From: an uncultured Candidatus Saccharibacteria bacterium
GTDB lineage: Bacteria; Patescibacteriota; UBA1384; DTJR01
Reading direction: 5' to 3'
DNA length: 64,000 nt
NCBI GenBank assembly: GCA_964487045.1
Contig: CAZAOT010000003.1
Location: 3,730 to 67,729, forward strand
Shown here: piece by piece, positions 8,988 to 34,016 of the stretch
How the letters are laid out: every line of letters starts with the position of its first letter
Numbering within the stretch: the stretch's first letter is position 1
Translations under genes and position numbers: made by a program
Notes under the pieces: model-generated
What the model was told of the DNA's origin: nothing
Database searches by the model: none
What the model saw: only the letters and a program-made list of their open reading frames with translations

Positions 8988-9124
8988 TTTACAAATTTCA
9001 AAGTCAGGCTAAATACTGTGGCTTGCCCCGTATTGTCCGCTTCTGGTGTGATTGGATGTAATCCAATAAGCCAGAAAGGATCGATACTGGGTTAGAGAAA
9101 AGAAGTAAGGTTAGCCTTAAAAAC

Positions 9125-9156
9125 AAAAAGACGACCTTCTTAAGGTCGTTTTTTTG
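9125..9156 (-). terminator. Hairpin terminator after the tRNA-Ser 3'-end duplicate
   Basis: Minus strand: AAAAAAACGACCTTAAGAAGGTCGTCTTTTTG. Confidence 0.5.
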
Positions 9157-9175
9157 ATGGCGGAGAGGGTGGGAT
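9157..9175 (-). repeat. Direct duplicate of the last 18 nt of tRNA-Ser (T-loop end + acceptor 3' strand + CCA)
   Basis: TGGCGGAGAGGGTGGGAT occurs at 9158-9175 and again at 9283-9300 (plus strand). Confidence 0.8.
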
Positions 9176-9245
9176 CCTCGGCAAGCTGGACAAAGTCCAC
9201 TTGCCTTGCGAACCAGTCGTCGTGGGTTCGATCCAGACCCACGCA
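9176..9245 (-). repeat. Conserved structured arm element between tRNA-Ser and its 3' duplicate; homologous to 47260-47336
   Basis: Minus-strand sequence ...CTGGATCGAACC...GTTCGCAAGGC-[GGCAAG...CTTGCC hairpin]-GAGG. The same blocks occur after tRNA-Gln, with a compensatory hairpin (GGCGAT...ATCGCC). Confidence 0.45.
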
Positions 9246-9282
9246 TAAACAAAATACCGGCATCCTGCCGGCATTCCGTTTA

Positions 9283-9372
9283 TGGCGGAGAGGGTGGGAT
9301 TCGAACCCACGAGACCCTTGCGAGCCCAACAGTTTTCGAGACTGTCCTGTTCAACCACTCCAGCACCTCTCC
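9283..9372 (-). tRNA. tRNA-Ser (anticodon CGA), long variable arm, CCA encoded
   Basis: Minus strand: GGAGAGG-TG-CTGG..AGTGGTTGAA..-ACAGT-CTCGAAA-ACTGT-long variable arm-GTGGG-TTCGAAT-CCCAC-CCTCTCC-G-CCA. Upstream promoter TTGATT-N17-TAATAT at 9385-9413 (minus). Confidence 0.8.
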
Positions 9373-14775: not shown

Positions 14776-16263
14776 TTATTTTAACCCCAAACACTTGCCT
14801 GGATCGAAGTAGCCCGTAGTTGAGGAATTCTGATTCATCAGTTGAAAATGAAGGTGGGCCCCAGACGACCAGCCATTATGATCAACCTGAGCAATAACTT
14901 GTCCCTTTTCGACACGTTCACCGGTCTTAACACCTACGCTACCGGTTCTAACGTGATGATATTCGCTGTAAACTCCGTTATCGTGTTTGATTCTAATTAG
15001 ATTCCCGAAGCCTCCATTTTGCGAAGTGTTGCCCCAATAACCACTCCCATCTTTGTATCCTTTGTCTTCGACTAAGACTACGGTACCAGCCATAACCGAC
15101 ACTATCTTTGTTCCTGTCGGTGCGCCAAAATCATATCCTCGATGCTGGGCCCTTCCTCTTTTACCTGTCAGCCCAGATGTTACGTGAGTATTTCCTGGAA
15201 TTGGGAGTGCACACTCTCCTTTGCCGGTAATGATGTCCTCGCCGCCGTAGTCGCTTGTGGGTGCATTATAAAAGTCCGAGGCTTCGGTTCTTCTTGAAAA
15301 TTCAGCCATAAATGCTTGGGCAACTTGCGGACGGAAATCTTGGCCAGCTGCAGGGCCTTCCGCAGGGGTCTCGGATTCTGGTGGGCACTTGTCACCACGG
15401 TCGACCTTGGGAGATGTTTCGACTGCGGAACTAGCTACTGTGTTTGTAGTTGCGCCCGATGCTTGTGTCGTCTTTGGATCAGTCGTAGTTTGCGCGGACG
15501 TGGCCTTCGGCGCTACCGAGAAATAGTTATTTACTCCTCGCTGAAGTGCAGCCGCAACCTTATCCTGCACAGAAGCCTGCTTGTATTTTTCGACAAGTGT
15601 TGGGTTGGAGTGACCGTAAACTTCTACGGTAATTACGGGAGCTTTTGAGTGTGCCGAGATCATAAGTAGCTTGCCCCAGCCGAGTTTATCGTTAGAGTTG
15701 TTGTAGGCTTCACCGTGCGGTGGCCTCACGGACTTAAACCCGCTGGATAGCATCGCTCCATTTATCTTGCTTGCCATTGTCTTGGCGACACTTAAATAGT
15801 TATCTATATGGGGAGAAGTTACATTATATTTATCGGGTCCGGCGACGTCAGGGTAGAGGATGTGATAAGCGTCAACTTTAAGATTGTCAGAATGAATACT
15901 TACCACCATTTCGGCGCCGGCACGATTGGCGATTTCAGCGCGCGCCCTCGTGTCAACATACTCTTTCCCTGATGTATGTCCGCCGAGCGCTTGGCCATTT
16001 TGGGTTCTTGTCATAACAACCTTATATCCATCCGCAATCAGTCTAGCTTGTAATTTCTTAGCTATCTCAAGTTCCGTGGGCCCCTCTATGGGGCGATTAT
16101 TAACTACGGTGCCATGGCCAGCATCGATCACAACAGTGTGTCCATTTCCGGCAGCTTTTGCTTGGGCAGTAAAAAGGCAAACCATCAATAACACCAGGCC
16201 AAAAAATCTGGTCTTGAAGAGACGATTTACTAATTTTCTGGCAATATATCGATGATTTTCCAT
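14776..16263 (-). CDS. Bifunctional peptidoglycan hydrolase: N-acetylmuramoyl-L-alanine amidase (Amidase_3) + C-terminal M23/LytM peptidase
   Basis: VVIDAGHG...MTR amidase motifs at the N-terminus. C-terminal HRGYDFGAP...HLHFQL M23 zinc motifs. Signal peptide. Confidence 0.8.
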   Translation of the reverse strand: MENHRYIARKLVNRLFKTRFFGLVLLMVCLFTAQAKAAGNGHTVVIDAGHGTVVNNRPIEGPTELEIAKKLQARLIADGYKVVMTRTQNGQALGGHTSGKEYVDTRARAEIANRAGAEMVVSIHSDNLKVDAYHILYPDVAGPDKYNVTSPHIDNYLSVAKTMASKINGAMLSSGFKSVRPPHGEAYNNSNDKLGWGKLLMISAHSKAPVITVEVYGHSNPTLVEKYKQASVQDKVAAALQRGVNNYFSVAPKATSAQTTTDPKTTQASGATTNTVASSAVETSPKVDRGDKCPPESETPAEGPAAGQDFRPQVAQAFMAEFSRRTEASDFYNAPTSDYGGEDIITGKGECALPIPGNTHVTSGLTGKRGRAQHRGYDFGAPTGTKIVSVMAGTVVLVEDKGYKDGSGYWGNTSQNGGFGNLIRIKHDNGVYSEYHHVRTGSVGVKTGERVEKGQVIAQVDHNGWSSGAHLHFQLMNQNSSTTGYFDPGKCLGLK

Positions 16264-22300: not shown

Positions 22301-24328
22301 TTATGTTTGGTTTGGATTATTTGTAGGCGTGGCTGCGGGAGGCGCTTGTACTTGTGGGCTTTGTCCTGGTACTTGCGCAGCAGGCGGCTGGATTGGGGCG
22401 GTTGAAGCCGGCGCTCCTTGGGTTTGTGCAGGCTCGATGATGGAAACTTGCGGTTGAGCTTGCGGAGTTGGCGCTGGGGCGGGTGCTGGAGCTGACGGAG
22501 CCTGATCACCCGTAATTGCCTCGCCGGCAACAGCATTTTGAGCATTCTCGGCTTCTTTTTGCGCCAAGAGTTCCTTCGGATCGGTCGTTATAATTTGGTC
22601 CTCAGCGAAGGATGCAATAATTTTTATAGCGACATGAGAAGCTCCAGCAAAGAATAACCCTTCTCCTACGTCGGATTCAAGTAAGATAAATTTTTCTCCT
22701 TCAGTCAGGTGGAAGACTTGGGCTAATTTTTCAACAGCGGCAGGAGACTGCTTGAGCAAGATCTGGATCGAAGAGTTGTTGATAACCGCCCGCCCCTGAT
22801 CAGAATTTAAGAAGTCTTCAACGTCTTGGCTGATGATAGTTAGACCAAGGAAGTATTTTCTAGCTCTTTTGGCAAGAGAATACAGATACTTAGCAGAATC
22901 CGGATATTGCATCAGGATCCAGGCCTCGTCGACGATCAGGATTCTTTTACGCATTTCATTTCTAATTCTCGCCCAGATGTAGTTTAGGATCATATACATG
23001 GCGAGTGGCCTCAGTGCTTCTTCCAGGTTTCTGATTGAAAATACGATAAACCCTCGCTCAAGCTCGAAGTTGGTTGGCTTGTTAAACAAACCGGCGAAAG
23101 TTCCTTCGGTATATTTCATCAAACGCCTGGCTAAGCTCTCCGCTCCCTTGGTGTTTTGCAAAACTCCTTGAAGGTCTGAAAGAAGCGGAGGGGTATTCTG
23201 ATGGGTCGAAGCATCGGCCGTTATGTCTCGAAGGGCATAGGTGTCGTAGACAGCTTTATCCAAAATCGCGTCTTCTTCCGGCGTTACTCCGCCAACCATC
23301 AAAGCAAGCAGGCCTTTGATGTCGGTAATCGCAGTTCGAAGCACAGTCTCTCCGTCTTCGTCCGCTCCCATTCGCGGCAAGTCAAAAGGGTTAACTCGTT
23401 TTTCTGAGTTTAGAGAAAAGTCAAAGAAACTTCCCCCGACAGCTTCGCATAATGCCTGGTATTCGTTTTCAGGGTCGATACAAATAACGTCTGTGCCAAA
23501 CATCAGCGAACGAAGCGCCTCGAGTTTAACCGTATATGACTTTCCCGAACCTGATTTAGCAAATACAACTTCATTGGCGTTCTCTAGATCGAATCTATCA
23601 AAGAGAATCAGCGAGTTGTTGTGTCTGTTGATTCCATAAAATACGCCTTTATTGGAAGTTAGCTCTGCTGAAACAAATGGAAAACTGGTCGAGAGGGAAT
23701 TAGTGTCGAGATTTTTAACTACCGAAAGTTCGTCCTCAGCAATTGGGAGCGTTGAGTGGAAACCTTGTTCTGATTGGAAAATTGCCTGTTTGGTATAGAC
23801 AAGCAAACCACCGAGCGAGCTAATTAAACGTTGCGTTTCGCTATTTAGGTCAACTTGGCTTTTTGCATAAATTGTAAAATAAAGCCCGACCTTAAAAATT
23901 CTCTGTTGCCCACTCATCAAATCGTCTCTGAGCGTATCGATATCACCAATGGCCTGGTCAAGTTGCGGGTTTCTGACCAACCCCTTTTCCTGCTCGATCT
24001 GGCGGCTAGATTCGAGCCTTCCAGCTTGCTTGCGCATCTTGTCTAAGAACAAATTAGAGTCAAGTGGAGCGATATGCATGCCGACATCCATTGTCATATC
24101 TGAGTTGACGACCGGCGAAAGCCAGTTGGAATACAAGAACCGAGGATAAGAGTAAACAAATAAGGTTTTAATAAAAAGATTATTGATCTGAAGGTAGTTC
24201 GGGGTTGTGATGTAACTCGCCGGTGCAATGAAATCAAGCATCGAGTTTGACGATTTCTCGATGTCTCGCTCGGTCTTCTTGGCTTGGCGAGGATCTAATT
24301 GGGGTTGAGCTTGTTTTTGGTCCGGCAT
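22301..24328 (-). CDS. VirB4/TrbE/CagE-family T4SS ATPase, C-terminal ATPase part with Pro/Gln-rich tail
   Basis: 675 aa. Walker A AKSGSGKSYTVK. Walker B ILIVDEAW. Typical VirB4 C-terminal domain. Confidence 0.85.
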   Translation of the reverse strand: MPDQKQAQPQLDPRQAKKTERDIEKSSNSMLDFIAPASYITTPNYLQINNLFIKTLFVYSYPRFLYSNWLSPVVNSDMTMDVGMHIAPLDSNLFLDKMRKQAGRLESSRQIEQEKGLVRNPQLDQAIGDIDTLRDDLMSGQQRIFKVGLYFTIYAKSQVDLNSETQRLISSLGGLLVYTKQAIFQSEQGFHSTLPIAEDELSVVKNLDTNSLSTSFPFVSAELTSNKGVFYGINRHNNSLILFDRFDLENANEVVFAKSGSGKSYTVKLEALRSLMFGTDVICIDPENEYQALCEAVGGSFFDFSLNSEKRVNPFDLPRMGADEDGETVLRTAITDIKGLLALMVGGVTPEEDAILDKAVYDTYALRDITADASTHQNTPPLLSDLQGVLQNTKGAESLARRLMKYTEGTFAGLFNKPTNFELERGFIVFSIRNLEEALRPLAMYMILNYIWARIRNEMRKRILIVDEAWILMQYPDSAKYLYSLAKRARKYFLGLTIISQDVEDFLNSDQGRAVINNSSIQILLKQSPAAVEKLAQVFHLTEGEKFILLESDVGEGLFFAGASHVAIKIIASFAEDQIITTDPKELLAQKEAENAQNAVAGEAITGDQAPSAPAPAPAPTPQAQPQVSIIEPAQTQGAPASTAPIQPPAAQVPGQSPQVQAPPAATPTNNPNQT

Positions 24329-25075: not shown

Positions 25076-25642
25076 TTATTTAAAAATTCCTAAAAATCCT
25101 TTTTTTGCCTGCGCTGGGGCTGCTTGGCTAAGCTTTTGATTTTGGCTCGCAGTCTTAACATCTTTGACCGAAAGATTAACCGCTTTGGGTTTGGCCTGGG
25201 GGGCGACTGGGGTCTTAGATTGAATTGTGGCGGTTTGTTTCTCGAGTGACTTAGCAAGTGAATCGAGGTCAGCCTCGGTTTTTGCAACTTCTTTCTTCTG
25301 CTGGGCCTCTGCTGGATTTGCCCTGATGACTGCCTCTGGCGTGTATCCCCCGGTCCATTTTCTACTCTTCGGAGAAATCATAAACTTGAAAATATTAAGG
25401 AGAAAATACTCAAACGGACGGTCATTTACTTTTACCATTGCTAGGCAAAGACAGAGTAGCCCTACTGGCAATCCAACTATTGCAAAAATAACCATTGGTG
25501 GTGGCGAGGAAAATTGATTTGAGTAATTCCACCAGCCATAGAGAATAAAACCTCCGACCATCAAGTAAAGGAACTGCTTCATCGTAAAAGGACCGACAAT
25601 TTTGTCTTCTAGGTCTATATTTTGTGGAACCTTATATTGCAT
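25076..25642 (-). CDS. PrgI/VirB3-like small membrane protein upstream of VirB4
   Basis: 188 aa. Two TM helices near the N-terminus and a Lys/Ala/Gln-rich tail. Position and size typical of Gram-positive T4SS PrgI/VirB3. Confidence 0.5.
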   Translation of the reverse strand: MQYKVPQNIDLEDKIVGPFTMKQFLYLMVGGFILYGWWNYSNQFSSPPPMVIFAIVGLPVGLLCLCLAMVKVNDRPFEYFLLNIFKFMISPKSRKWTGGYTPEAVIRANPAEAQQKKEVAKTEADLDSLAKSLEKQTATIQSKTPVAPQAKPKAVNLSVKDVKTASQNQKLSQAAPAQAKKGFLGIFK

Positions 25643-25915: not shown

Positions 25916-28900
25916 TTAGAATCCGAAGTGTACGTGGGTTTTGATTGAGCGATTTTGCATAAGTCCAGAAACTCTTTTGTTGGTCTTGCTTGGCAGGAAG
26001 TCTTCACCGTATAGGAGCCTAGCGTAGTTTACTATCTGTCTGTATCCAACCATTGGCTCAGAGCTCTCTTTGGCATATAGGGCGTCGGTGATTCCTAATT
26101 TTTTGGCTGCTTCAACTTCATCACTCGTAATGACTGCCCTTGGAGATATCAGTTGCTTGATCGCATAGGTTCCATTCTTGGGATTTTCTATGTCCATAAA
26201 ATTACTCCAGTGTTTCTTCAGGAAGCTAGTATCGGTCTTGGTGAGTTCGCGATTAGAGCTTGCTGCTAGGCTGTACAGAAGTAAGTCTTCAGCTACTTGA
26301 TCAACTGTACGGCGGGAGATTTTTTTGAACTGCTCCTCGCTAGGCTTCTTGGGAGCGAGATAGGCGGATGATGCGCTAACGGGGCTCGGCTTATCATCAG
26401 CGGCATAGACAATCGCAGGGGCAAAGACGTATGTTCCGCCCTCGGGCGCGGTACCCGCAGGTTGTTCAATTGGCGCATCAACTATCTTACCATCCAAGGT
26501 GTCATCCTTAGCAGCTTTTACAGCGTTCTTTGCGGCGGATTGGGCCTTAGGTTTCTTCTTGCCAAAGCCGAGAAAGCCCATAATGAAACCAACCGGATCG
26601 GTGAATATCTGAAGGGCCATTATTACTAGTCCTTTGATAGCCTGGATCGTGCTCTTGAAATCAATCAAAAGCGAGATTCCAAGTAAGATTGGCATCGAGA
26701 TTCCGAGCGATGCTATCCAGGTAGCGGCGTAGTTCATGGCAATGGAGGTTAATATTCCACCTGTCGGATCGATCTTAGCAAGAGTGTTTCCGACAAGTTT
26801 GTTTAGAATTACTCCTGTGGCAATATTGCTAAGTGTCGCGTTATAGTCAAAGTTTTTATAATAATCAACGATGTTGTTTGGTAGGTTCTGGACATTGTCT
26901 TGTAGGTTTACAATTGCATCTCGTGAAAAACCGAGTTGATCTTCAACAACCCCCCAGCCTAGATTTTCAAGCTTATTTTCGGGCGTTTCTACTTTATTGA
27001 GAGTATCTTTACCGGCATTTGTTGCATTGTTTGCGTTGGAGATATTATTGTTTTCGTTGTCTACAGCCACGCCTGGTTCACCCGACAGGTTAGAAGGAAC
27101 ATCACTTGTCGGATCATTGTTCATATTTGAAAAGGCGGCATCACCAGAATTTGAACCACTTGGGTCAATCCCAACATTAGAGGTTGTAGTCGGATATGTT
27201 GTGGTAGGCCTTGGGCTGCTGCTGATAGCCTCAGTTAAGGCGCTGTATAGTGCAGATGCTGCCTCGCCCGATATTTGCGTGTTTGTTATTCTAGAAAAAC
27301 CATTTGCCAAAAGAGTTTGTCCTGCGACATTTCCGAGTTGGCTAAAGTCATTGTTCATAAACTCCAAAGCTTGCTCTCTAGAGATTGGAATGTTGTTTGC
27401 TTCGGCAACTTCTTTGAGAGCATTTGCGCCGCTTTGCTTGCCTATGTCTGCCAGGAGCGCCTGCCGTTCGGCTTCCGTTCCGTGCATTAAAGTGTCAGTT
27501 ATCGATCTTGTGCCTGAATAATAAATGTGTTGCTGGGCGAGCTCGTAATTAACTAGATTATCTCTAAGCGCATCTCTTTCAGCGGCGGTGGAGCGTCCTG
27601 CAAGCACAGACTTAACTCCTTCAATCGTCACGGTTCCAGGTGGCAGCTGCGAGACAATCTTTTTGGCCACAATAGAGTTTGCTATGACCTTTTCCGCTCC
27701 CTTTACCTGTCCACTTGTTATTGCGTCAGCCTCTTTGTTATTGAGCCCTTTGGCGGTTAAAATATTTCTGCCTTCATCCTGCGCTGCTGCCTTCCCTTTG
27801 TCCAAAGCCTTATCAAGAGCCTTCTCGACTTTATCAGAAGTAGTTTGGCGATCTTTCTCTGCCTGATCTACACTCGAGCCTTCTGCACTAGAGGTAGCAA
27901 TTGCTCGAGCCTTTGCCTTAGCCCCAGCGTATGCGGACGCTGCAACTCCCTTGCTCGTATCGCTCCCGAGCATTCCATCGAGCATTTCCTTTGTTTCTTT
28001 GCCTAGTTTTGGGTTAGAAGAGAACGCGCTTGAAATTGCGGACGCACTCGAATAATCTTTTTTGCTAAAGTAATCAACAACTTTCTGTACTGGCAATTTG
28101 CTCTTGGAAGCAATTGCTCCAAGGGCAAGCTTTTTTCCAGCTGCAAAATTTCCATTTTTAAATAATGTTAAATCCTGCTTAGTAAGTGTCACGCCCCATT
28201 TTTTTCCAACTTCTTGATTGATCTTGGCAAGCCCGACGTCGGTTCCGTTCAAGCGATCTTGAGCTAATCCAACGCCAAGATAAGATGCTTGAGCAGCGGA
28301 TAGACCAATCTTTTGCAGCCCGCGACTAAAAATATATGCTTCGCTAGCCTGCTCTAGCTTTCCATTTTCAAAGCCCTCTTCGAGTTCTTTGGGGGTTGGG
28401 TTTGCGCCAAACACACTTTGAAATATTGCTTTTTCCTCTGGCTTCATGAGGTTAGTTGATGATGAAATTGTGCTGGCGTATACACTTGGATAAGCTTTAT
28501 CTAATGCGCTCACGTAGTCTGAAGATGAGCTGTAGACGTCGAATATTTCCTTGCATCCCTTAGCGTCTTCATCTGAAATATTTTGGTTTTGGTTGACCCA
28601 GTCAATGATAGTTTGAATTGCTTTTGTGCCTGACATTCTTTGGGCCACACCGCTTCTAAATTCTTTCTTGGTTAAAAAATCGTTTAAGGCTATCCGCTGA
28701 GTTTCATTTAAAGCTGGAGAACCCTTGAGTGCGATTAAAAATTTTCCAGCTACCGATGAGTCTTTTTGGGCTTGAGCTTCGTCTAACTTTGACCTAAGAG
28801 CCGCATAACCACCAGCCGTGAGTGCACGTAGCTGATCCTTTTCCGTTTCAGACATAGTGCGATTGCTTTCTATGTACGAGATTAACTCATCTGATGACAC

Positions 28901-30295
28901 TCCCGACTGAGCCATGCTGGCAATCTTGGTATCTGAAAATCCGAGGTTGTAGCTAGCATTTAGTCGACTGGCGCCAATAATTTTGGCAGCCATCTGGTAA
29001 TTGCCGCTCTTAAGTTGGTTTATTGCAGAAGCCGGAATGAGTGTTGCTACGTCAGAATTTTGATGAGCGCTTAGGGCTGCGACAGCTGCTGCTACCTCTT
29101 CTGGTGTTGGGTTTTCGCCAAGGGCTATTCCAGCTTGATCATAAAGTGCCTTTTTACCGATAGTCTCGAGCTTAGCTCCATCTCGAAGCGATCCTGCCGG
29201 AAGTCCTTGTTGCTTCTCGTATGCTCGCTCTAGCATTTGCGCTGCTCGATCTTCAAACGATAGTTTAGTTGCAGCCTGCTTGGATAATTCAGGAATTGTC
29301 GCACCTGTCGCGGTAGTTAAATCAGCCGGTGGATCATTGTGAACCATTAATTCTGGCTCGGCATCTGGGTCGGCAAAATCGGCAGCAATTTGGACTGGAC
29401 CCAGGCCCGCCCGCTCAGCAGCGTCAAGCCCGGCAGTAAAAAGCGTCGAATTTCCTTCTTTAATCTCAGCCAGTCCTTCTTGAACTTCTGGAGAAGCTTG
29501 AGCTGAAGAATTCGTAGCAGCAGCAAGAGCTTGTTCGGTGACTTGTGAAATTTCAGCCTTATCGCTCTGACCAATTGCTAAGTTATTTGCAATTACTTGC
29601 GGTTCGTCACCAGTGATAATAGTGCATCCAAAAGTTCTGACATCTACTCCTTGCCCGCGTGAATGTGACGAGAAAGTGCTTCTTGAATCTGTGGCGGCCT
29701 TGTCGTCTTCCAATCCACTCTGGGCAACTGCGGTCGGCTGACCATTGTCATCCATATATGAAGCAGCGACTGACAAGGTCATAATTGGTGCGGTCTTGCC
29801 TTCGTATGAGCAATCAACATCGAACCCTTTGCTAGTGAATCTTTTTTCATAAAGGTAATAAATAGCCGCTAGAGATCTTTTGTCCCAGTGAGAGCTAAAT
29901 AGGTGAAACATTTCCACGCCATTGTCCATGGCCATCGAAAGGGGATCAAGGAAAACGATCCCAGACTTTCCTTCGTCGTGTGCCTTGCATAATTCGTCAA
30001 ATCGAGTCGAACCGATATCTTGTGCCTGATCGAATAATTTTTTGAAATCATCTTCCGACTCTGGGTAGGCGGGTTCATCGGCAGTTTTAGTCTTATTCCA
30101 AATGTCCTTGTCGCAAGAAAGGTTAAGGATTGTCGTAGCGGCTTTAACGTCGGAAGGAGATGACTTTTTAACTTCCTGCTTGAAACTTGACCCTGTTGCA
30201 CCGCTACCGAGTCCCAAGCCCGACACAAAAGTCGGCGTTGCAACCGAGGCTACAACGATGTTGAGCGCTAGAAGTAATGGTAGAAGTGCCCCCAT
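25916..30295 (-). CDS. Giant (1459 aa) secreted/membrane-anchored protein of the T4SS locus (possible VirB6-like or surface adhesin)
   Basis: N-terminal signal peptide. Long Ala/Ser/Lys-rich low-complexity central region. Three or four TM helices at about aa 1100-1180 (ILTSIAMNYAATWIASLGISMPILLGISLL...). Confidence 0.5.
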   Translation of the reverse strand: MGALLPLLLALNIVVASVATPTFVSGLGLGSGATGSSFKQEVKKSSPSDVKAATTILNLSCDKDIWNKTKTADEPAYPESEDDFKKLFDQAQDIGSTRFDELCKAHDEGKSGIVFLDPLSMAMDNGVEMFHLFSSHWDKRSLAAIYYLYEKRFTSKGFDVDCSYEGKTAPIMTLSVAASYMDDNGQPTAVAQSGLEDDKAATDSRSTFSSHSRGQGVDVRTFGCTIITGDEPQVIANNLAIGQSDKAEISQVTEQALAAATNSSAQASPEVQEGLAEIKEGNSTLFTAGLDAAERAGLGPVQIAADFADPDAEPELMVHNDPPADLTTATGATIPELSKQAATKLSFEDRAAQMLERAYEKQQGLPAGSLRDGAKLETIGKKALYDQAGIALGENPTPEEVAAAVAALSAHQNSDVATLIPASAINQLKSGNYQMAAKIIGASRLNASYNLGFSDTKIASMAQSGVSSDELISYIESNRTMSETEKDQLRALTAGGYAALRSKLDEAQAQKDSSVAGKFLIALKGSPALNETQRIALNDFLTKKEFRSGVAQRMSGTKAIQTIIDWVNQNQNISDEDAKGCKEIFDVYSSSSDYVSALDKAYPSVYASTISSSTNLMKPEEKAIFQSVFGANPTPKELEEGFENGKLEQASEAYIFSRGLQKIGLSAAQASYLGVGLAQDRLNGTDVGLAKINQEVGKKWGVTLTKQDLTLFKNGNFAAGKKLALGAIASKSKLPVQKVVDYFSKKDYSSASAISSAFSSNPKLGKETKEMLDGMLGSDTSKGVAASAYAGAKAKARAIATSSAEGSSVDQAEKDRQTTSDKVEKALDKALDKGKAAAQDEGRNILTAKGLNNKEADAITSGQVKGAEKVIANSIVAKKIVSQLPPGTVTIEGVKSVLAGRSTAAERDALRDNLVNYELAQQHIYYSGTRSITDTLMHGTEAERQALLADIGKQSGANALKEVAEANNIPISREQALEFMNNDFSQLGNVAGQTLLANGFSRITNTQISGEAASALYSALTEAISSSPRPTTTYPTTTSNVGIDPSGSNSGDAAFSNMNNDPTSDVPSNLSGEPGVAVDNENNNISNANNATNAGKDTLNKVETPENKLENLGWGVVEDQLGFSRDAIVNLQDNVQNLPNNIVDYYKNFDYNATLSNIATGVILNKLVGNTLAKIDPTGGILTSIAMNYAATWIASLGISMPILLGISLLIDFKSTIQAIKGLVIMALQIFTDPVGFIMGFLGFGKKKPKAQSAAKNAVKAAKDDTLDGKIVDAPIEQPAGTAPEGGTYVFAPAIVYAADDKPSPVSASSAYLAPKKPSEEQFKKISRRTVDQVAEDLLLYSLAASSNRELTKTDTSFLKKHWSNFMDIENPKNGTYAIKQLISPRAVITSDEVEAAKKLGITDALYAKESSEPMVGYRQIVNYARLLYGEDFLPSKTNKRVSGLMQNRSIKTHVHFGF

Positions 30296-31565: not shown

Positions 31566-34016
31566 CTAATACCATTTATATATATTTATTTTCTCGGCGT
31601 TTTCTACGTCGGCCGGATTTATCCTGGCAACTCTTCCAGCAGTGCGATCAAGGACAATTATTTCTTGGCTGTTTAAGTCAACTGCAAGGACGTCCAGCTC
31701 ATGGTTCACATCATCACCTTCCCAGATTTTCTTAATTTCTTCACGTCCTTCCCGACGTTCTGTCTTTCTGACAAGTTCTACTCTATATCGATTATTATTA
31801 GAGTAGGGCGCAAATCTGGAAAGATCGTGGCTCAGAGCATAGGTTGTCAAATTATTTCTAGGAGTATATCCGTCGGGGAGATCTCTTGGGGTCAATTCAA
31901 CTACGGGGCTTCTAGAAGCTCTTCTCATCTCTGTAAGATCGAGATTCGGTGCATTCTCCCCAGCTTCGGTTGACATACCAAAAATAGCTGAACCATCGGC
32001 AGGTGGTGTTTGTGGAAGATAATTATCGCCCTCAACTGCAAGCGCGATTTTAAATCTTCTTGGTGGATCTGCGTTGTTATTTTCATTAATAGCTTGAATA
32101 AGGTTCGTGATATTTTGTCTTTCAATATCAGTCATATCGTCCCAGTTGCGATGGGTTGACGCATAGAGGGCTGCGTTTGCGTTGTCTACGAAGTCATACC
32201 AATTATTATTTAAAATATCTGTCCAGTTTACAACTAATTCTGTTGGCACTTCTGGTTCAGTTCTAACTTCATTCTCAGTCTCGGGTACAATTGGTTCGCG
32301 CGGAGTGACCGCTGGGGTTGTTTCTGGTCTTGCGCCTGGTCTACCGCCGTCTGGGCCATCTCCACCTGAACCATTTCCTCCAGATTCGTGGCCTCTAATT
32401 GCGGTTCCCTTCAGTCCCGGCCCTGAAACGCTTTTTCTTTCGGCGGCCATATTTACTCCGGCACCGATTGCAGCGCCGTGCGCCAGGCTCTGAGCGGCCA
32501 TCGATGGCATCGAGAGTGAGTCAACGGCGTACTGAGTTGCATCAGCATGAAGCTCTGTATTAAATGGTATCTGGTCGTGGAGCGTGTAATCCCAGCCCCT
32601 GGTGGGAAAATTTTCAGTCAGATACTTGTCGGCATTCTTGAGCGTTTCGGCAAAGTGATTGTAGTCAAGATGGCCATCCGGCCCGAGCTTAGAGGCATTA
32701 TCTATCAAATGCTGAAGACCGTCTTTGTTAAAGTCATACTGATATCCATCCGCAATCACATTGTGTCCAGGTAGTGGCTGAGCAAAATTAAAATCGTGAA
32801 CCAGTTGGTTGACTGCTTCATCATAGGTCATACCCTGATTGACCATCATCTCATGTAAATAGGCTTGGGGAGGCTGTATGTCTTGGTGAAGGCCTTTTTC
32901 TAGAGCGCTACTTAAGGCATTGCCCCAGTCTGTATGTTGGTTGGGAATATGCTCCAGGAGTGGATTAGCGTCATAGCTGCTTGCGACTTCTCTTACGTCA
33001 GGTCCGTCCTGAATCGAAATTTCATTAGCTCTGCCAAAATGCTCCTGATAATATTCTCCTTTAAGGTGAGTCATTTTCATCCAGTGCAGACCAAATGATA
33101 CCGCGTCCGAGAGTGCACCTATTCCCGCACCGATCAGCGCCCCGCGCTTCATCCCGATAATCCCAGCTTTTTTAACCGAGTCTCGGACATCTTTCCTGAA
33201 TTCTTGTGTGTAAAATGCTCCGTGATTAGTTGCTTGGATAATTCTTGTTTCAAATCCTTCAGCTTCTCTCGCCTTACAATTGTAAAAGGCTAGCAGCTTG
33301 AGCATCTCGGGCAAATTACCGCTGAAAAGTTCATTTTTCTTGACGGCTTCTTCAGTGCGTAGATTTGATGGCCTAGACAAAAGAAACTGCTCGATAAATG
33401 CTAGGGCATTCGCGTCTCTTTCTGGATCGGTTTCGTCTCGAGATATTCTATTATATTCGGCAACTACTCCTTCATATCCGTAGCTTACTTCTCTTTGTTT
33501 TTCTTCAGCTCGCCATTTTCCGGCAATCCCACCAATTACTGCTCCTGTGATAGTGCCCGCACCATAACCCAAGCCATCAACTAGATGGAGAGCGGATCTT
33601 AAAACCATCGAGCTTCCTGTGGTCAGGGCTATTCTCTTTAATTTACCGGAATTTTTCCCGAACCACTTTTGTATACCGCTGTACCATTTCTTTTCTGGCT
33701 CTTCGATTGAAATTGTGCCGTTATCCTGGCTTATGCCAGATAGCATTTGGGATCTAAAGTTTGCAAACAGCATGTCAGTTCTTTGGTCAATTTCGCTAAG
33801 ATTTTGGCCGAAATAAGAATTAAGAAGTACCTCTCTCTCGTCTTCCGAAAGGGTAGTTTCGTATTGCTTTTCGACATAACGAACAATGCGCCGCCTAAGA
33901 ATTTGTGCTTGCGCAGAGTCTGTTACTTGAGGCTCTTCTTCTAAAGCCTCGTCTTGATCCTGGGCTGGGTCTTGATCGGCGGGAATTGGTTCCGCGCCTG
34001 GTTGGCCTAATCGCAA
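31566..34016 (-). CDS. Large hypothetical protein (816 aa) with glycine-zipper segments and a Gly/Pro-rich linker
   Basis: GxxxG zippers (GAVIGGIAGKW, GALIGAGIGALSD). GSGGNGSGGDGPDGGRPGARPETTP linker. TTG start after SD AAGGAGGG. Confidence 0.5.
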   Translation of the reverse strand: MRLGQPGAEPIPADQDPAQDQDEALEEEPQVTDSAQAQILRRRIVRYVEKQYETTLSEDEREVLLNSYFGQNLSEIDQRTDMLFANFRSQMLSGISQDNGTISIEEPEKKWYSGIQKWFGKNSGKLKRIALTTGSSMVLRSALHLVDGLGYGAGTITGAVIGGIAGKWRAEEKQREVSYGYEGVVAEYNRISRDETDPERDANALAFIEQFLLSRPSNLRTEEAVKKNELFSGNLPEMLKLLAFYNCKAREAEGFETRIIQATNHGAFYTQEFRKDVRDSVKKAGIIGMKRGALIGAGIGALSDAVSFGLHWMKMTHLKGEYYQEHFGRANEISIQDGPDVREVASSYDANPLLEHIPNQHTDWGNALSSALEKGLHQDIQPPQAYLHEMMVNQGMTYDEAVNQLVHDFNFAQPLPGHNVIADGYQYDFNKDGLQHLIDNASKLGPDGHLDYNHFAETLKNADKYLTENFPTRGWDYTLHDQIPFNTELHADATQYAVDSLSMPSMAAQSLAHGAAIGAGVNMAAERKSVSGPGLKGTAIRGHESGGNGSGGDGPDGGRPGARPETTPAVTPREPIVPETENEVRTEPEVPTELVVNWTDILNNNWYDFVDNANAALYASTHRNWDDMTDIERQNITNLIQAINENNNADPPRRFKIALAVEGDNYLPQTPPADGSAIFGMSTEAGENAPNLDLTEMRRASRSPVVELTPRDLPDGYTPRNNLTTYALSHDLSRFAPYSNNNRYRVELVRKTERREGREEIKKIWEGDDVNHELDVLAVDLNSQEIIVLDRTAGRVARINPADVENAEKINIYKWY

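What the first reader, a model, noticed from the sequence alone, without database searches (positions are those of the whole stretch)
9125..9372. tRNA-Ser 3' end directly duplicated 125 bp downstream, separated by a conserved structured arm shared with tRNA-Gln
The last 18 nt of tRNA-Ser (…ATCCCACCCTCTCCGCCA) recur at 9157-9175. The intact tRNA and the duplicate are each followed by their own hairpin terminator. The intervening arm contains CTGGATCGAACC…CGCAAGGC-hairpin-GAGG. The same blocks, in the same order, sit between tRNA-Gln and its own 3' duplicate at 47160-47358. Between the two loci the hairpin shows compensatory changes (GGCAAG/CTTGCC versus GGCGAT/ATCGCC). That is the signature of a tRNA-targeting integrative element's attL/attR footprint with almost no cargo left. 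Alternatively it is a small structured element that copies the 3' end of whichever tRNA it lands in.
Basis: seen in the sequence. Interest (0 to 1): 0.6.

Follow-up and report, generated by a model that had tools for sequence, protein, structure and literature searches.

The report
Tiny insert copying tRNA 3' ends
Both tRNA genes in this window from an uncultured Patescibacteria (CPR) bacterium are followed by a small conserved folded DNA/RNA module ending in an exact copy of that tRNA's last 18 bases; it is most likely the scar or mini-form of a tRNA-targeting recombination element, but with features no known element explains.

Summary
tRNA-Ser(CGA) (9283-9372, -) and tRNA-Gln(CTG) (47160-47233, +) are each followed by a ~40-nt hairpin plus T-run spacer. 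After it comes a ~68-nt arm with shared blocks (CTGGATCGAACC, TGGTnCGCAAGGC, a covarying hairpin, GCCGAGG). Last comes an exact 18-nt copy of that tRNA's positions 59-76.

I found one more instance, at tRNA-Ser(GGA) in a related metagenomic strain (L140). Its copy follows its own tRNA's one-base difference. Sister lineages carry the same tRNAs without the module, so it is an insertion.

Three new points:
- The arm carries 9-12 nt complementary to the tRNA bases just left of the duplication boundary.
- GCCGAGG, a 7-nt gap and the acceptor 3' strand form an imperfect inverted repeat, like a recombinase core site.
- The spacer is unrelated between loci, although two arms are 95% identical.

The window holds no integrase, transposase or reverse transcriptase. 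No Rfam family matches. The GTDB and IMG/VR scans gave chance hits only.

Best reading (about 0.45): a miniature, non-autonomous site-specific insertion at the tRNA 3' end. Main rival (about 0.3): a tRNA-matched structured RNA. With only three instances the mechanism is unresolved.

The parts
9283..9372 (-). Intact tRNA-Ser(CGA). Its last 18 nt (9283-9300, positions 59-76 including CCA) are repeat copy R1.
   Evidence: ARAGORN; Rfam tRNA 57.8 bits; sequence.
9244..9282 (-). Spacer with a hairpin (9257-9271) followed by a T run on the tRNA strand. It looks like a terminator. Its sequence is unrelated to the spacers of the other two loci, but its length is similar.
   Evidence: Sequence; hairpin found; three-locus alignment.
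9237..9243 (-). L-mimic CGTGGGT, a direct copy of tRNA positions 48-54 (the 5' strand of the T stem). It can pair with the anti-L segment (helix P1).
   Evidence: Sequence; P1 appears in the minimum-free-energy fold.
9220..9236 (-). Constant block CTGGA followed by anti-L TCGAACCCACGA. Anti-L is 12 nt complementary to tRNA positions 47-58, the bases immediately left of the duplication boundary.
   Evidence: and the sequence.
9206..9219 (-). Loop bases CGAC, then the constant block TGGTTCGCAA. Its GGTTC(G) can pair with (C)GAACC of the previous block (helix b).
   Evidence: RNAalifold consensus; pair counts.
9180..9205 (-). Hairpin P2 (GGCAAGTGGAC-TTT-GTCCAGCTTGCC). It is kept through compensatory changes in the other two instances.
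   Evidence: Between the window Ser unit and L140, A-U changes to C-G.
9176..9179 (-). GAGG, the end of the constant GCCGAGG block. It is the left half of the imperfect inverted repeat GCCGAGG-N7-CCTCTCC. The element/tRNA-copy junction lies right after it.
   Evidence: Sequence; the GAGG:CCUC hairpin appears in the fold.
9158..9175 (-). R2, an exact 18-nt copy of tRNA-Ser positions 59-76 (ATCCCACCCTCTCCGCCA).
9124..9156 (-). Strong two-way terminator hairpin after R2, shared with the convergent yidC gene.
   Evidence: stem 9131-9149, tail CTTTTTGTTT; yidC identified.
47160..47233 (+). Intact tRNA-Gln(CTG). Its last 18 nt (47216-47233) are repeat copy R1.
47234..47265 (+). Spacer with a hairpin (47237-47263) that runs into a T run. 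Its sequence is unrelated to the Ser spacers.
   Evidence: Sequence; alignment.
47266..47301 (+). 5' part of the arm: L-mimic TTGGTT (47266-47271), constant CTGGA plus anti-L TCGAACCAA (47278-47291, 9 nt complementary to tRNA-Gln positions 50-58), then TGGTGCGCAA.
47302..47332 (+). Hairpin P2 (GGCGAT...ATCGCC with an A/U-rich loop).
47333..47354 (+). GAGG followed by R2, an exact copy of tRNA-Gln positions 59-76 (47337-47354). CCGAGG can pair with TCTCGG of the copy (6 pairs around a 7-nt loop).
   Evidence: pairing read directly from the sequence.
47355..47394 (+). Terminator-like hairpin (TTGCCA...TGGCAA) with a T run, after R2.
   Evidence: Sequence. The scanner did not flag it because its loop is longer than 8 nt.

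Best explanation
The module is the product of site-specific insertion at the 3' end of tRNA genes by a very small, non-autonomous element, mobilised in trans by a recombinase encoded elsewhere.

Proposed structure and steps:
- The insert is about 105-108 bp and lies between two copies of tRNA positions 59-76. The upstream copy completes the working tRNA (attL-like). The downstream copy is the displaced native end (attR-like).
- The conserved arm is the element's recombination site. GCCGAGG is an element-borne half-site. The next 7 bp (ATCCnnn, which are the last two bases of the T loop plus the 3' strand of the T stem) would be the strand-exchange region. The acceptor 3' strand is the imperfect second half-site.
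- The rest of the arm folds, as single-stranded DNA or as RNA, into a three-way junction. Its stacked helices a and b reproduce the duplex GGTTCGATCC/GGATCGAACC, a near copy of the target's T-loop region. It also carries 9-12 nt complementary to the target's left flank.
- I infer that this is how the element recognises T arms. That would explain why it can sit at different tRNAs that share GGTTCGA|ATCC and G4-A5-G6 in the acceptor stem.

Shown: the anatomy, the insertion polarity relative to sister lineages, and the near-identity of arms at different tRNA genes. Inferred: the recombinase, the crossover position, and any mobility of the 125-bp unit itself.
For: 1. Exact 18-nt repeats start at tRNA position 59 at three different tRNA genes.
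2. The L140 copy carries T66 and the window copy C66, each matching its own tRNA.
3. Relatives have the same tRNAs without the module: L026/L027, L029 and L030-L032 for Ser, L144 for Gln.
4. The arms at tRNA-Ser(CGA) next to yidC and at tRNA-Ser(GGA) next to a methyltransferase gene in another organism are about 95% identical. That implies recent copying between loci or genomes.
5. The acceptor 3' strand, read as reverse complement, matches the constant GCCGAGG at 5 of 7 positions in both window tRNAs and at 4 of 7 in L140, across a 7-nt gap. This is the layout of a tyrosine-recombinase core. By my own calculation, two independent 5-of-7 matches have a chance of about 2e-4.
6. Phage Ms6 shows that tRNA T-loop/3'-end identity blocks are ordinary attB sites, retargetable by changing the attP core (PMC1762012). 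Partial tRNA copies are the normal attR signature of integration (PMC9897764).
7. In strain L138 (1 mismatch to L140 over 2295 nt) the same spacer and arm are joined, exactly after ...CCGCCA, to a different CCA-ending conserved sequence. This suggests the block starting right after the CCA is the unit that gets joined.
8. With the insert removed, both window loci become a plain tRNA followed by a terminator.
Against: - The 64-kb window encodes no integrase, transposase or other recombinase detectable by Pfam or NCBIfam.
- No full-length parent element was found anywhere.
- The 40-nt spacer, which this model places inside the element, is unrelated between loci whose arms are 95% identical, yet is the same length within 3 nt.
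- The identity block excludes the 5' strand of the T stem and most of the T loop. It therefore differs from the symmetric T-loop class exemplified by Ms6, whose 26-bp core spans the whole T arm.
- A 125-bp circle is an awkward recombination substrate.
- P2 covariation and the three-way junction are not needed by a double-stranded att site.
- There are only three instances, two of them near-identical, so all statistics are weak (38 of 500 shuffles reach the observed covariation).
Confidence: 0.45

Rival explanations
1. The arm plus R2 is a small structured RNA gene, read through from the tRNA promoter, that is matched to its neighbouring tRNA. Its scaffold is the three-way junction or the P1/P2/P3 fold. 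It carries a segment antisense to tRNA positions 47-58 and a 3' tail identical to positions 59-76.

It could act as a two-part guide for an effector encoded elsewhere, pairing with both strands of the tRNA gene as the loops of a bridge RNA do. Alternatively its 3' guide could work like that of a TnpB/Cas12 RNA. It could also be an acceptor/T-arm mimic ending in NCCA that binds a tRNA-handling enzyme. On this reading the spacer is simply the tRNA's own terminator, and the module sits just behind it.
For: - The conserved unit starts only after the locus-specific spacer and ends exactly at the CCA.
- P2 is kept by compensatory changes.
- The three-way-junction fold is the minimum-free-energy fold or within 1 kcal/mol of it in all three sequences.
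- All terminator-like features point in the tRNA direction, and there is no separate promoter.
- The antisense match of 12, 11 and 9 nt tracks each tRNA's T stem.
- GCCGAGG pairs with the acceptor 3' strand, giving a microhelix with a free NCCA tail.
- Unrelated spacers next to 95%-identical arms are natural if the spacers are native.
Against: - No effector gene lies nearby.
- No Rfam family matches even at E up to 10.
- Helices a and b never vary, so nothing supports them beyond thermodynamics, and the Gln helix b has an A-G mismatch.
- This model needs a separate account of how each unit became matched to its tRNA.
- It requires two tandem terminators in the ancestral window loci.
- There is no expression data.
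Confidence: 0.3
2. Ordinary decayed footprints. Three larger tRNA-integrating islands or prophages related at their attR-side arm were each almost entirely deleted, leaving attL, a few dozen bases, the P arm and attR.
For: Direct repeats of the tRNA 3' end with an intact upstream tRNA are the classic result of integrase-mediated integration (PMC9897764; PMC1762012). Relatives lack the insert.
Against: - Three independent deletions would have to leave remnants of 121, 125 and 126 bp, each with a terminator hairpin at the same place.
- The arm shows conserved blocks and a covarying hairpin rather than decay.
- No full-length relative of the arm exists in 596 Gb of genomes, in IMG/VR or in the JGI contigs scanned.
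- No integrase remnant is present.
Confidence: 0.12
3. A by-product of reverse transcription. The 18 nt are exactly tRNA positions 59-76, the stretch copied from a tRNA primer up to a modified A58 in retroviral-type replication. The module would then be a retro-copied sequence primed by, or templated on, the mature tRNA.
For: In all three cases the repeat begins exactly after position 58 and includes the CCA. Eighteen nt is the canonical primer-binding-site length (my own knowledge, not tested here).
Against: - The window contains no reverse transcriptase.
- The tRNA genes encode CCA, so a DNA origin explains the repeat equally well.
- The two tRNA-matching segments have opposite polarity (one antisense, one sense), unlike a primer-binding site plus primer-activation signal, which lie on one strand.
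- The shared boundary follows from the common ancestry of the arms and is not independent evidence.
Confidence: 0.05
4. Chance similarity, a plain tandem duplication, or an assembly artefact.
For: Short repeats next to tRNA genes can arise by slippage. Metagenome contigs often break or mis-join at tRNAs.
Against: - The pattern was found in 0 of 100 shuffles.
- Three independent assemblies give the identical Ser arrangement.
- A third locus in another organism has the same arm.
- The intervening sequence is not a copy of neighbouring DNA.
Confidence: 0.02

Closest known systems
attL/attR sites of tyrosine-integrase elements that integrate into the 3' end of tRNA genes (for example mycobacteriophage Ms6 in tRNA-Ala, or P4-type islands)
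   Same: A direct repeat covers the tRNA 3' end, and the tRNA is rebuilt upstream while a partial copy is left downstream. Sister lineages have the empty site. A candidate core exists, with inverted half-sites around a 7-bp gap.
   Different: Only about 105 bp lie between the repeats, and there is no integrase. The identity block starts at position 59 rather than spanning the symmetric T arm, whereas the Ms6 core is 26 bp and includes the whole T arm. The interior next to attL is unrelated between copies. The arm is a covarying folded structure that carries a segment antisense to the target's left flank.
CIMEs and other non-autonomous mini-elements flanked by att sites and mobilised in trans (described for the Streptococcus ICESt family; my own knowledge)
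   Same: Bounded by att-type repeats, lacks its own recombination genes, sits at a fixed chromosomal target.
   Different: Known CIMEs are kilobases long and clearly derive from a co-resident ICE. Here the unit is about 125 bp and no parent element is known.
Folded single-stranded recombination sites: integron attC sites and the CTX-phage attP(+) hairpin (my own knowledge)
   Same: Short conserved end motifs pair with each other. The central part varies in sequence but keeps its structure. The fold rebuilds a duplex that resembles the double-stranded target.
   Different: The predicted fold is a three-way junction rather than a single bulged hairpin. ATCGAAC fits the R'' consensus RYYYAAC only 6 of 7. 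No IntI or XerCD context was seen. The target is a tRNA gene.
Guide RNAs with a 3' or two-part guide: TnpB omega-RNA, Cas12 crRNA, IS110 bridge RNA target-binding loop (my own knowledge)
   Same: A compact scaffold is followed by an 18-nt target-identical 3' segment. A second segment is complementary to the opposite strand on the other side of the junction, as in the left and right target guides of a bridge RNA.
   Different: There is no adjacent effector gene, no repeat array and no Rfam match. The scaffold is much smaller than known omega-RNAs or bridge RNAs. A guide identical to the intact neighbouring tRNA gene would target the host itself.
Group IIC introns and other elements that insert just after intrinsic terminators (my own knowledge)
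   Same: The conserved unit begins immediately after a terminator-like hairpin and T run.
   Different: The unit has no ribozyme domains and no reverse transcriptase, and is only 87 nt long.

Membership tests
tRNA-targeting tyrosine-integrase integrative element (att footprint) | Direct repeat (identity block) covering the 3' part of the tRNA gene, with an intact tRNA at one end | tested here: met
   Exact repeats of 18-21 nt at three loci; the tRNAs are intact.
tRNA-targeting tyrosine-integrase integrative element (att footprint) | Integrase gene within or next to the element | tested here: not met
   No integrase, recombinase or transposase family matched any sizeable ORF of the 64-kb window (Pfam; NCBIfam). 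None appears in the 4-7 kb L138-L140 loci by their precomputed Pfam hits.
tRNA-targeting tyrosine-integrase integrative element (att footprint) | Empty site (tRNA without the repeat) in related genomes | tested here: met
   L026/L027, L029 and L030-L032 (Ser) and L144 (Gln) have the tRNA but no repeat and no arm.
tRNA-targeting tyrosine-integrase integrative element (att footprint) | Core of two inverted half-sites around a 6-8 bp overlap that is identical in attP and attB | tested here: inconclusive
   The reverse complement of the acceptor 3' strand, lying 7 nt beyond GCCGAGG, matches GCCGAGG at 5 of 7 (Ser-CGA), 5 of 7 (Gln) and 4 of 7 (Ser-GGA) positions, read. The same bases can equally be read as an RNA hairpin.
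tRNA-targeting tyrosine-integrase integrative element (att footprint) | Homologous element interior in related copies | tested here: not met
   The arms are 95% identical between the window Ser locus and L140, but the 40-nt spacer next to attL is unrelated.
Transposon or MITE with a target-site duplication | Terminal inverted repeats and a short fixed-length target duplication flanking a conserved element | tested here: not met
   No terminal inverted repeats beyond the 5-bp GGATC/GATCC. The left part of the insert is not conserved. I know of no bacterial transposase family with a fixed 18-bp duplication.
Known non-coding RNA families (Rfam 15), including tRNA-like elements, tmRNA, ribozymes and CRISPR repeats | A covariance-model match | tested here: not met
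   At gathering threshold only the two tRNAs match. At E up to 10 nothing credible lies on the arm. ARAGORN finds no tmRNA.
RNA-guided systems (TnpB/IscB omega-RNA, Cas12 crRNA, IS110 bridge RNA) | Guide RNA encoded next to its effector gene | tested here: not met
   No OrfB/TnpB, Cas or IS110-type domains were found in the window.
RNA-guided systems (TnpB/IscB omega-RNA, Cas12 crRNA, IS110 bridge RNA) | Structured scaffold next to target-matching guide segment(s) | tested here: inconclusive
   An 18-nt sense segment and a 9-12-nt antisense segment flank a conserved fold. Transcription and guide function were not tested.
Integron attC site | R''/L''...L'/R' motifs (RYYYAAC ... GTTRRRY) in a single bulged hairpin, with an IntI integrase | tested here: not met
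   ATCGAAC fits 6 of 7 positions only. The predicted fold is a three-way junction. No integron integrase was found (Pfam calls).

The most novel reading that the evidence does not exclude
The 87-nt unit is a self-contained, target-matched module of a new kind. It would be either a miniature mobile element whose folded strand recognises tRNA T arms by base-pairing and mimicry, acquiring or carrying the 3' end of the tRNA it lands beside. Or it would be a two-part guide RNA (antisense to positions 47-58, sense for 59-76) for a still unidentified RNA-guided recombinase or regulator in Patescibacteria.
Probability: 0.25. Interest if true: 0.85.

Novelty: new variant of a known kind. Interest (0 to 1): 0.55.

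Why it matters
tRNA 3' ends are the commonest landing sites for mobile DNA, but the known actors are kilobase-scale elements that carry their own integrase. A ~125-bp module would be the smallest tRNA-targeting element described if it restores the tRNA, brings a terminator-like hairpin, and has a folded arm that both mimics and complements the T-arm target.

It would also point to a trans-acting recombinase or RNA-guided enzyme in the candidate phyla radiation, a group whose mobile elements are poorly known.

If it is instead an RNA, a scaffold carrying a sense and an antisense segment on either side of one precise position of a tRNA gene would resemble a programmable two-strand guide. Such guides have obvious tool potential.

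If it proves to be ordinary integrase scarring, it remains a useful caution for tRNA annotation in metagenome-assembled genomes.

Tried and rejected
1. Genome-wide search for the arm. An exact three-block scan of 185,579 GTDB species representatives gave 17 hits. All lay in GC-rich contigs and looked like coding sequence; one contig held a tRNA-Trp gene well away from the match, and none showed a duplicated tRNA end.
2. The JGI metagenome scan gave 101 hits. Only one was real (L079), and it led to L138-L140.
3. Two IMG/VR scans with different block combinations gave chance hits only.
4. blastn against INPHARED phages and PLSDB plasmids found nothing.
5. A covariance model built from the three units found no further copy in the window or in 92 kb of related CPR loci. 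The best extra hit (L030 201-256, 18 bits) lies in a coding region and is chance.
6. A relaxed regex search allowing up to 3 mismatches found nothing new.
7. Is the arm a degenerate tRNA? Sense alignments of arm against tRNA body are weak (p 0.04-0.12). Only the antisense T-arm match stands out. The tRNA covariance model does not hit the arm.
8. Does L144 carry a diverged arm downstream of tRNA-Gln? There is a resemblance (CTGATC..., TGCACAAGG, then a hairpin) but it is not significant (p = 0.17) and the model does not hit it.
9. An empty-site comparison at the methyltransferase locus (L141) showed no homology upstream of the gene.
10. Closer YidC relatives were uninformative. The L025 and L143 contigs end too early, P0006 is cut within yidC, and L142 has no tRNA at that position.
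11. The retroviral PBS/PAS analogy was rejected because the two tRNA-matching segments have opposite polarity.
12. Hammerhead, other small ribozymes, group II intron remnants and CRISPR repeats were rejected on motifs and Rfam results.
Full report
**What is there**

ARAGORN and Rfam find exactly two tRNA genes in the window: tRNA-Ser(CGA) at 9283-9372 on the minus strand and tRNA-Gln(CTG) at 47160-47233 on the plus strand. Both are followed, in the tRNA's own direction, by the same four-part layout.

1. A spacer of about 40 nt that forms a hairpin followed by a T run.
2. An arm of about 68 nt.
3. An exact copy (R2) of the tRNA's last 18 nt, positions 59-76 including CCA. These lie at 9158-9175 and 47337-47354.
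4. Another terminator-like hairpin.

The arms share CTGGATCGAACC, TGGTnCGCAAGGC, a hairpin (P2) and GCCGAGG, in that order. The three-block pattern occurs only at these two places and in none of 100 shuffles.

Three independent Logan assemblies reproduce the Ser locus base for base. It is not an assembly artefact.

**Context**

The window is chromosomal and lies next to the replication origin genes dnaA, dnaN and recF. It also holds rnpA, yidD, yidC, a Ham1-family gene, a type IV pilus/secretion cluster, gltX, dnaE and dnaX. The closest named homologues of YidC and GluRS are from Candidatus Berkelbacteria and other Patescibacteria. The organism is thus an uncultured CPR bacterium.

No integrase, transposase, reverse transcriptase, TnpB or Cas domain was detected in any sizeable ORF, by Pfam or NCBIfam.

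**Other instances**

- An exact scan of the GTDB species representatives gave 17 matches. All lay in GC-rich contigs and looked like coding sequence, and none was next to a duplicated tRNA end.
- Two IMG/VR scans, and blastn against phages and plasmids, gave nothing.
- The JGI metagenome scan gave 101 matches, of which one was real, L079.
- Following L079's neighbouring methyltransferase gene led to contig L140, which shows the complete third instance.

In L140 the layout is tRNA-Ser(GGA), a 43-nt spacer hairpin with a T run, an arm 95% identical to the window's Ser arm, and R2 = ATCCCACTCTCTCCGCCA. That R2 differs from the window's Ser copy at one base (T66 instead of C66). This is exactly the difference between the two tRNAs, and it fits the A7-T66 pair of the L140 tRNA. 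In P2, the pair that is A-U in the window is C-G in L140.

**It is an insertion**

- Relatives with conserved gene order around yidC (YidC 57-65% identical: L026/L027, L029, L030-L032) have tRNA-Ser(CGA) at the same place, with no repeat and no arm.
- A relative with 78% identical GluRS (L144) has tRNA-Gln without the module. A faint resemblance downstream of it is not significant (p = 0.17).
- A covariance model built from the three units finds only the known copies in the window and in 92 kb of related loci.

**New anatomy**

1. The arm contains TCGAACCCACGA (window Ser, 12 nt), TCGAACCCACG (L140, 11 nt) or TCGAACCAA (Gln, 9 nt). Each is the reverse complement of the tRNA bases immediately to the left of the duplication boundary, positions 47/48/50 to 58. 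The tRNA-specific part of this match (CAC... versus AA) follows the T stem of the neighbouring tRNA.
2. Upstream of it lies a short direct copy of the 5' strand of the T stem (CGTGGGT; TTGGTT). This gives a hairpin P1 whose stem equals the cognate T stem.
3. The acceptor 3' strand, read as reverse complement, matches the constant GCCGAGG at 5 of 7 positions in both window tRNAs, across a 7-nt gap (positions 59-65). As RNA this is a 4-6-bp microhelix with a free NCCA tail. As DNA it is the layout of a recombinase core site. Two independent 5-of-7 matches have a chance of about 2e-4 by my calculation.
4. RNAalifold proposes a three-way junction.
   - Helix a is GGAUC paired with G|AUCC, spanning the arm/R2 junction.
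   - Helix b is GAACC paired with GGUUC, extendable by one C-G pair to CGAACC/GGUUCG in the Ser units.
   - The third helix is P2.
   - Stacked, a and b reproduce the duplex GGTTCGATCC/GGATCGAACC, the T-loop region of the target with one A missing.
   - This fold is the minimum-free-energy fold or within 1 kcal/mol of it in all three sequences.
   - Only P2 shows covariation, with 3 double changes. Helices a and b never vary. With three sequences the test is weak: 38 of 500 shuffles do as well.
5. The spacer between tRNA and arm is unrelated in all three loci. Even so, the distance from the CCA to CTGGA is 46, 44 and 47 nt.

No separate promoter is predicted. All terminator-like features face the tRNA direction.

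**An extra clue**

Contig L138 is the same strain as L140, with 1 mismatch in 2295 nt. It carries the same spacer, arm and R2. Upstream of ...CCGCCA, however, it has not the tRNA but a different sequence. That sequence is 95% identical to a conserved intergenic element in L026/L027 that also ends in CACACCGCCA. Either the block starting right after the CCA is present at two places in that genome, or the population is polymorphic at this joint. I could not resolve this.

**Interpretation**

The classical reading explains several things: the repeat, the restored tRNA, the empty sites in relatives and the core-like inverted repeat. In that reading an integrase-type element sits between attL and attR. 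It also has good precedent (PMC1762012; PMC9897764).

It does not explain the following:
- The absence of any recombinase or of any full-length parent element.
- Three inserts of 121-126 bp.
- The covarying fold.
- The antisense segment.
- Unrelated spacers next to 95%-identical arms.
- An identity block that starts at position 59 instead of spanning the T arm, as the 26-bp Ms6 core does.

My best explanation (confidence 0.45) is therefore a dedicated miniature, non-autonomous insertion module that uses site-specific recombination at GAGG|ATCC. Its arm would serve as a folded recognition site.

The main rival (0.3) is that arm plus R2 is a tRNA-matched structured RNA placed just behind the tRNA's own terminator. 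That reading handles the unrelated spacers better. It leaves unexplained how the match arose, and no effector is known.

Lower-ranked readings are decayed ordinary islands (0.12), a reverse-transcription by-product (0.05) and chance or artefact (0.02).

**Novelty and verdict**

The finding is real, is restricted to a narrow CPR lineage, and is not covered by Rfam or by any element family I could test. I file it as a new variant of a known kind, tRNA 3'-end site-specific insertion. I give a 0.25 chance that it is something categorically new: a base-pairing or mimicry-guided mini-element, or a two-part guide RNA.

The evidence base is thin. There are three instances, two of them near-identical, and no expression or excision data. 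The mechanism remains open.

Noticed in passing
L026 12775-12843 (also L027 12716-12781) and L138 1-69: A ~66-nt intergenic sequence is 95% identical between two different CPR organisms: ...CCGCCCGCCCTACAAATTTTGGGCGAAATCGGTTCGAATTTTTTCGAACGCACACCGCCA. It contains a hairpin made of a T-loop-like GGTTCGAA paired with its own antisense, and it ends in a tRNA-like CCGCCA. ARAGORN finds nothing and Rfam has no credible match. In L138 it is joined, exactly after the CCA, to the same spacer and unit that follow tRNA-Ser(GGA) in L140.
   Followed up: partly
L026 10890-11090; L142 1020-1170; ends of L025 (7800-7884) and L143 (1480-1549): Relatives share a conserved structured-looking intergenic element just downstream of yidC. 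It has a long hairpin starting TATGTC... with a TTGCG-containing loop, followed by ATGGGAGCACTCCGGGCGACAAGTTTGCGCC. Rfam gave no match at E up to 0.1 over L026 10780-13000. The window does not have it at this position.
   Followed up: partly
L144 5960-6042 (minus strand, downstream of tRNA-Gln): The sequence after the tRNA terminator reads TTTTTGGTGAAGAGCTGATCTGATCTGCACAAGGAGGGCATTAATGCC... It loosely parallels the Gln arm (CTGGATC..., TGCGCAAGG, then a hairpin) but lacks the 3'-end copy. The alignment is not significant (p = 0.17) and the covariance model does not hit it. It could be a very diverged relative or chance.
   Followed up: yes
window 8988-9372 and 47053-47233; loci L018-L024: All Logan contigs of this organism stop inside the two tRNA genes (within the T arm of tRNA-Ser, near the end of tRNA-Gln). 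This is probably because the tRNA ends share k-mers with other tRNA genes of the community. It limits what short-contig collections can show about tRNA-linked elements.
   Followed up: no
window 13773-34016 (minus strand): A long co-directional gene block includes a TraG/VirB4-like ATPase (22301-24328), a PrgI-like protein (25076-25642), an amidase/M23 peptidase (14776-16263), and very large ORFs with no Pfam match (1459 aa at 25916-30295; 816 aa at 31566-34016). It resembles the pilus/secretion clusters common in CPR genomes. No recombinase was seen in it.
   Followed up: partly
window 9225-9236, 9173-9178, 47278-47289, 47335-47340: Both constant junction motifs contain GATC, and GGATCC at the arm/R2 junction. 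Meanwhile the palindromic TTCGAA of the genuine T loops is absent from both T-loop-like segments of the arm (TCGAAC, TTCGCA). Any link to methylation or restriction was not examined.
   Followed up: no
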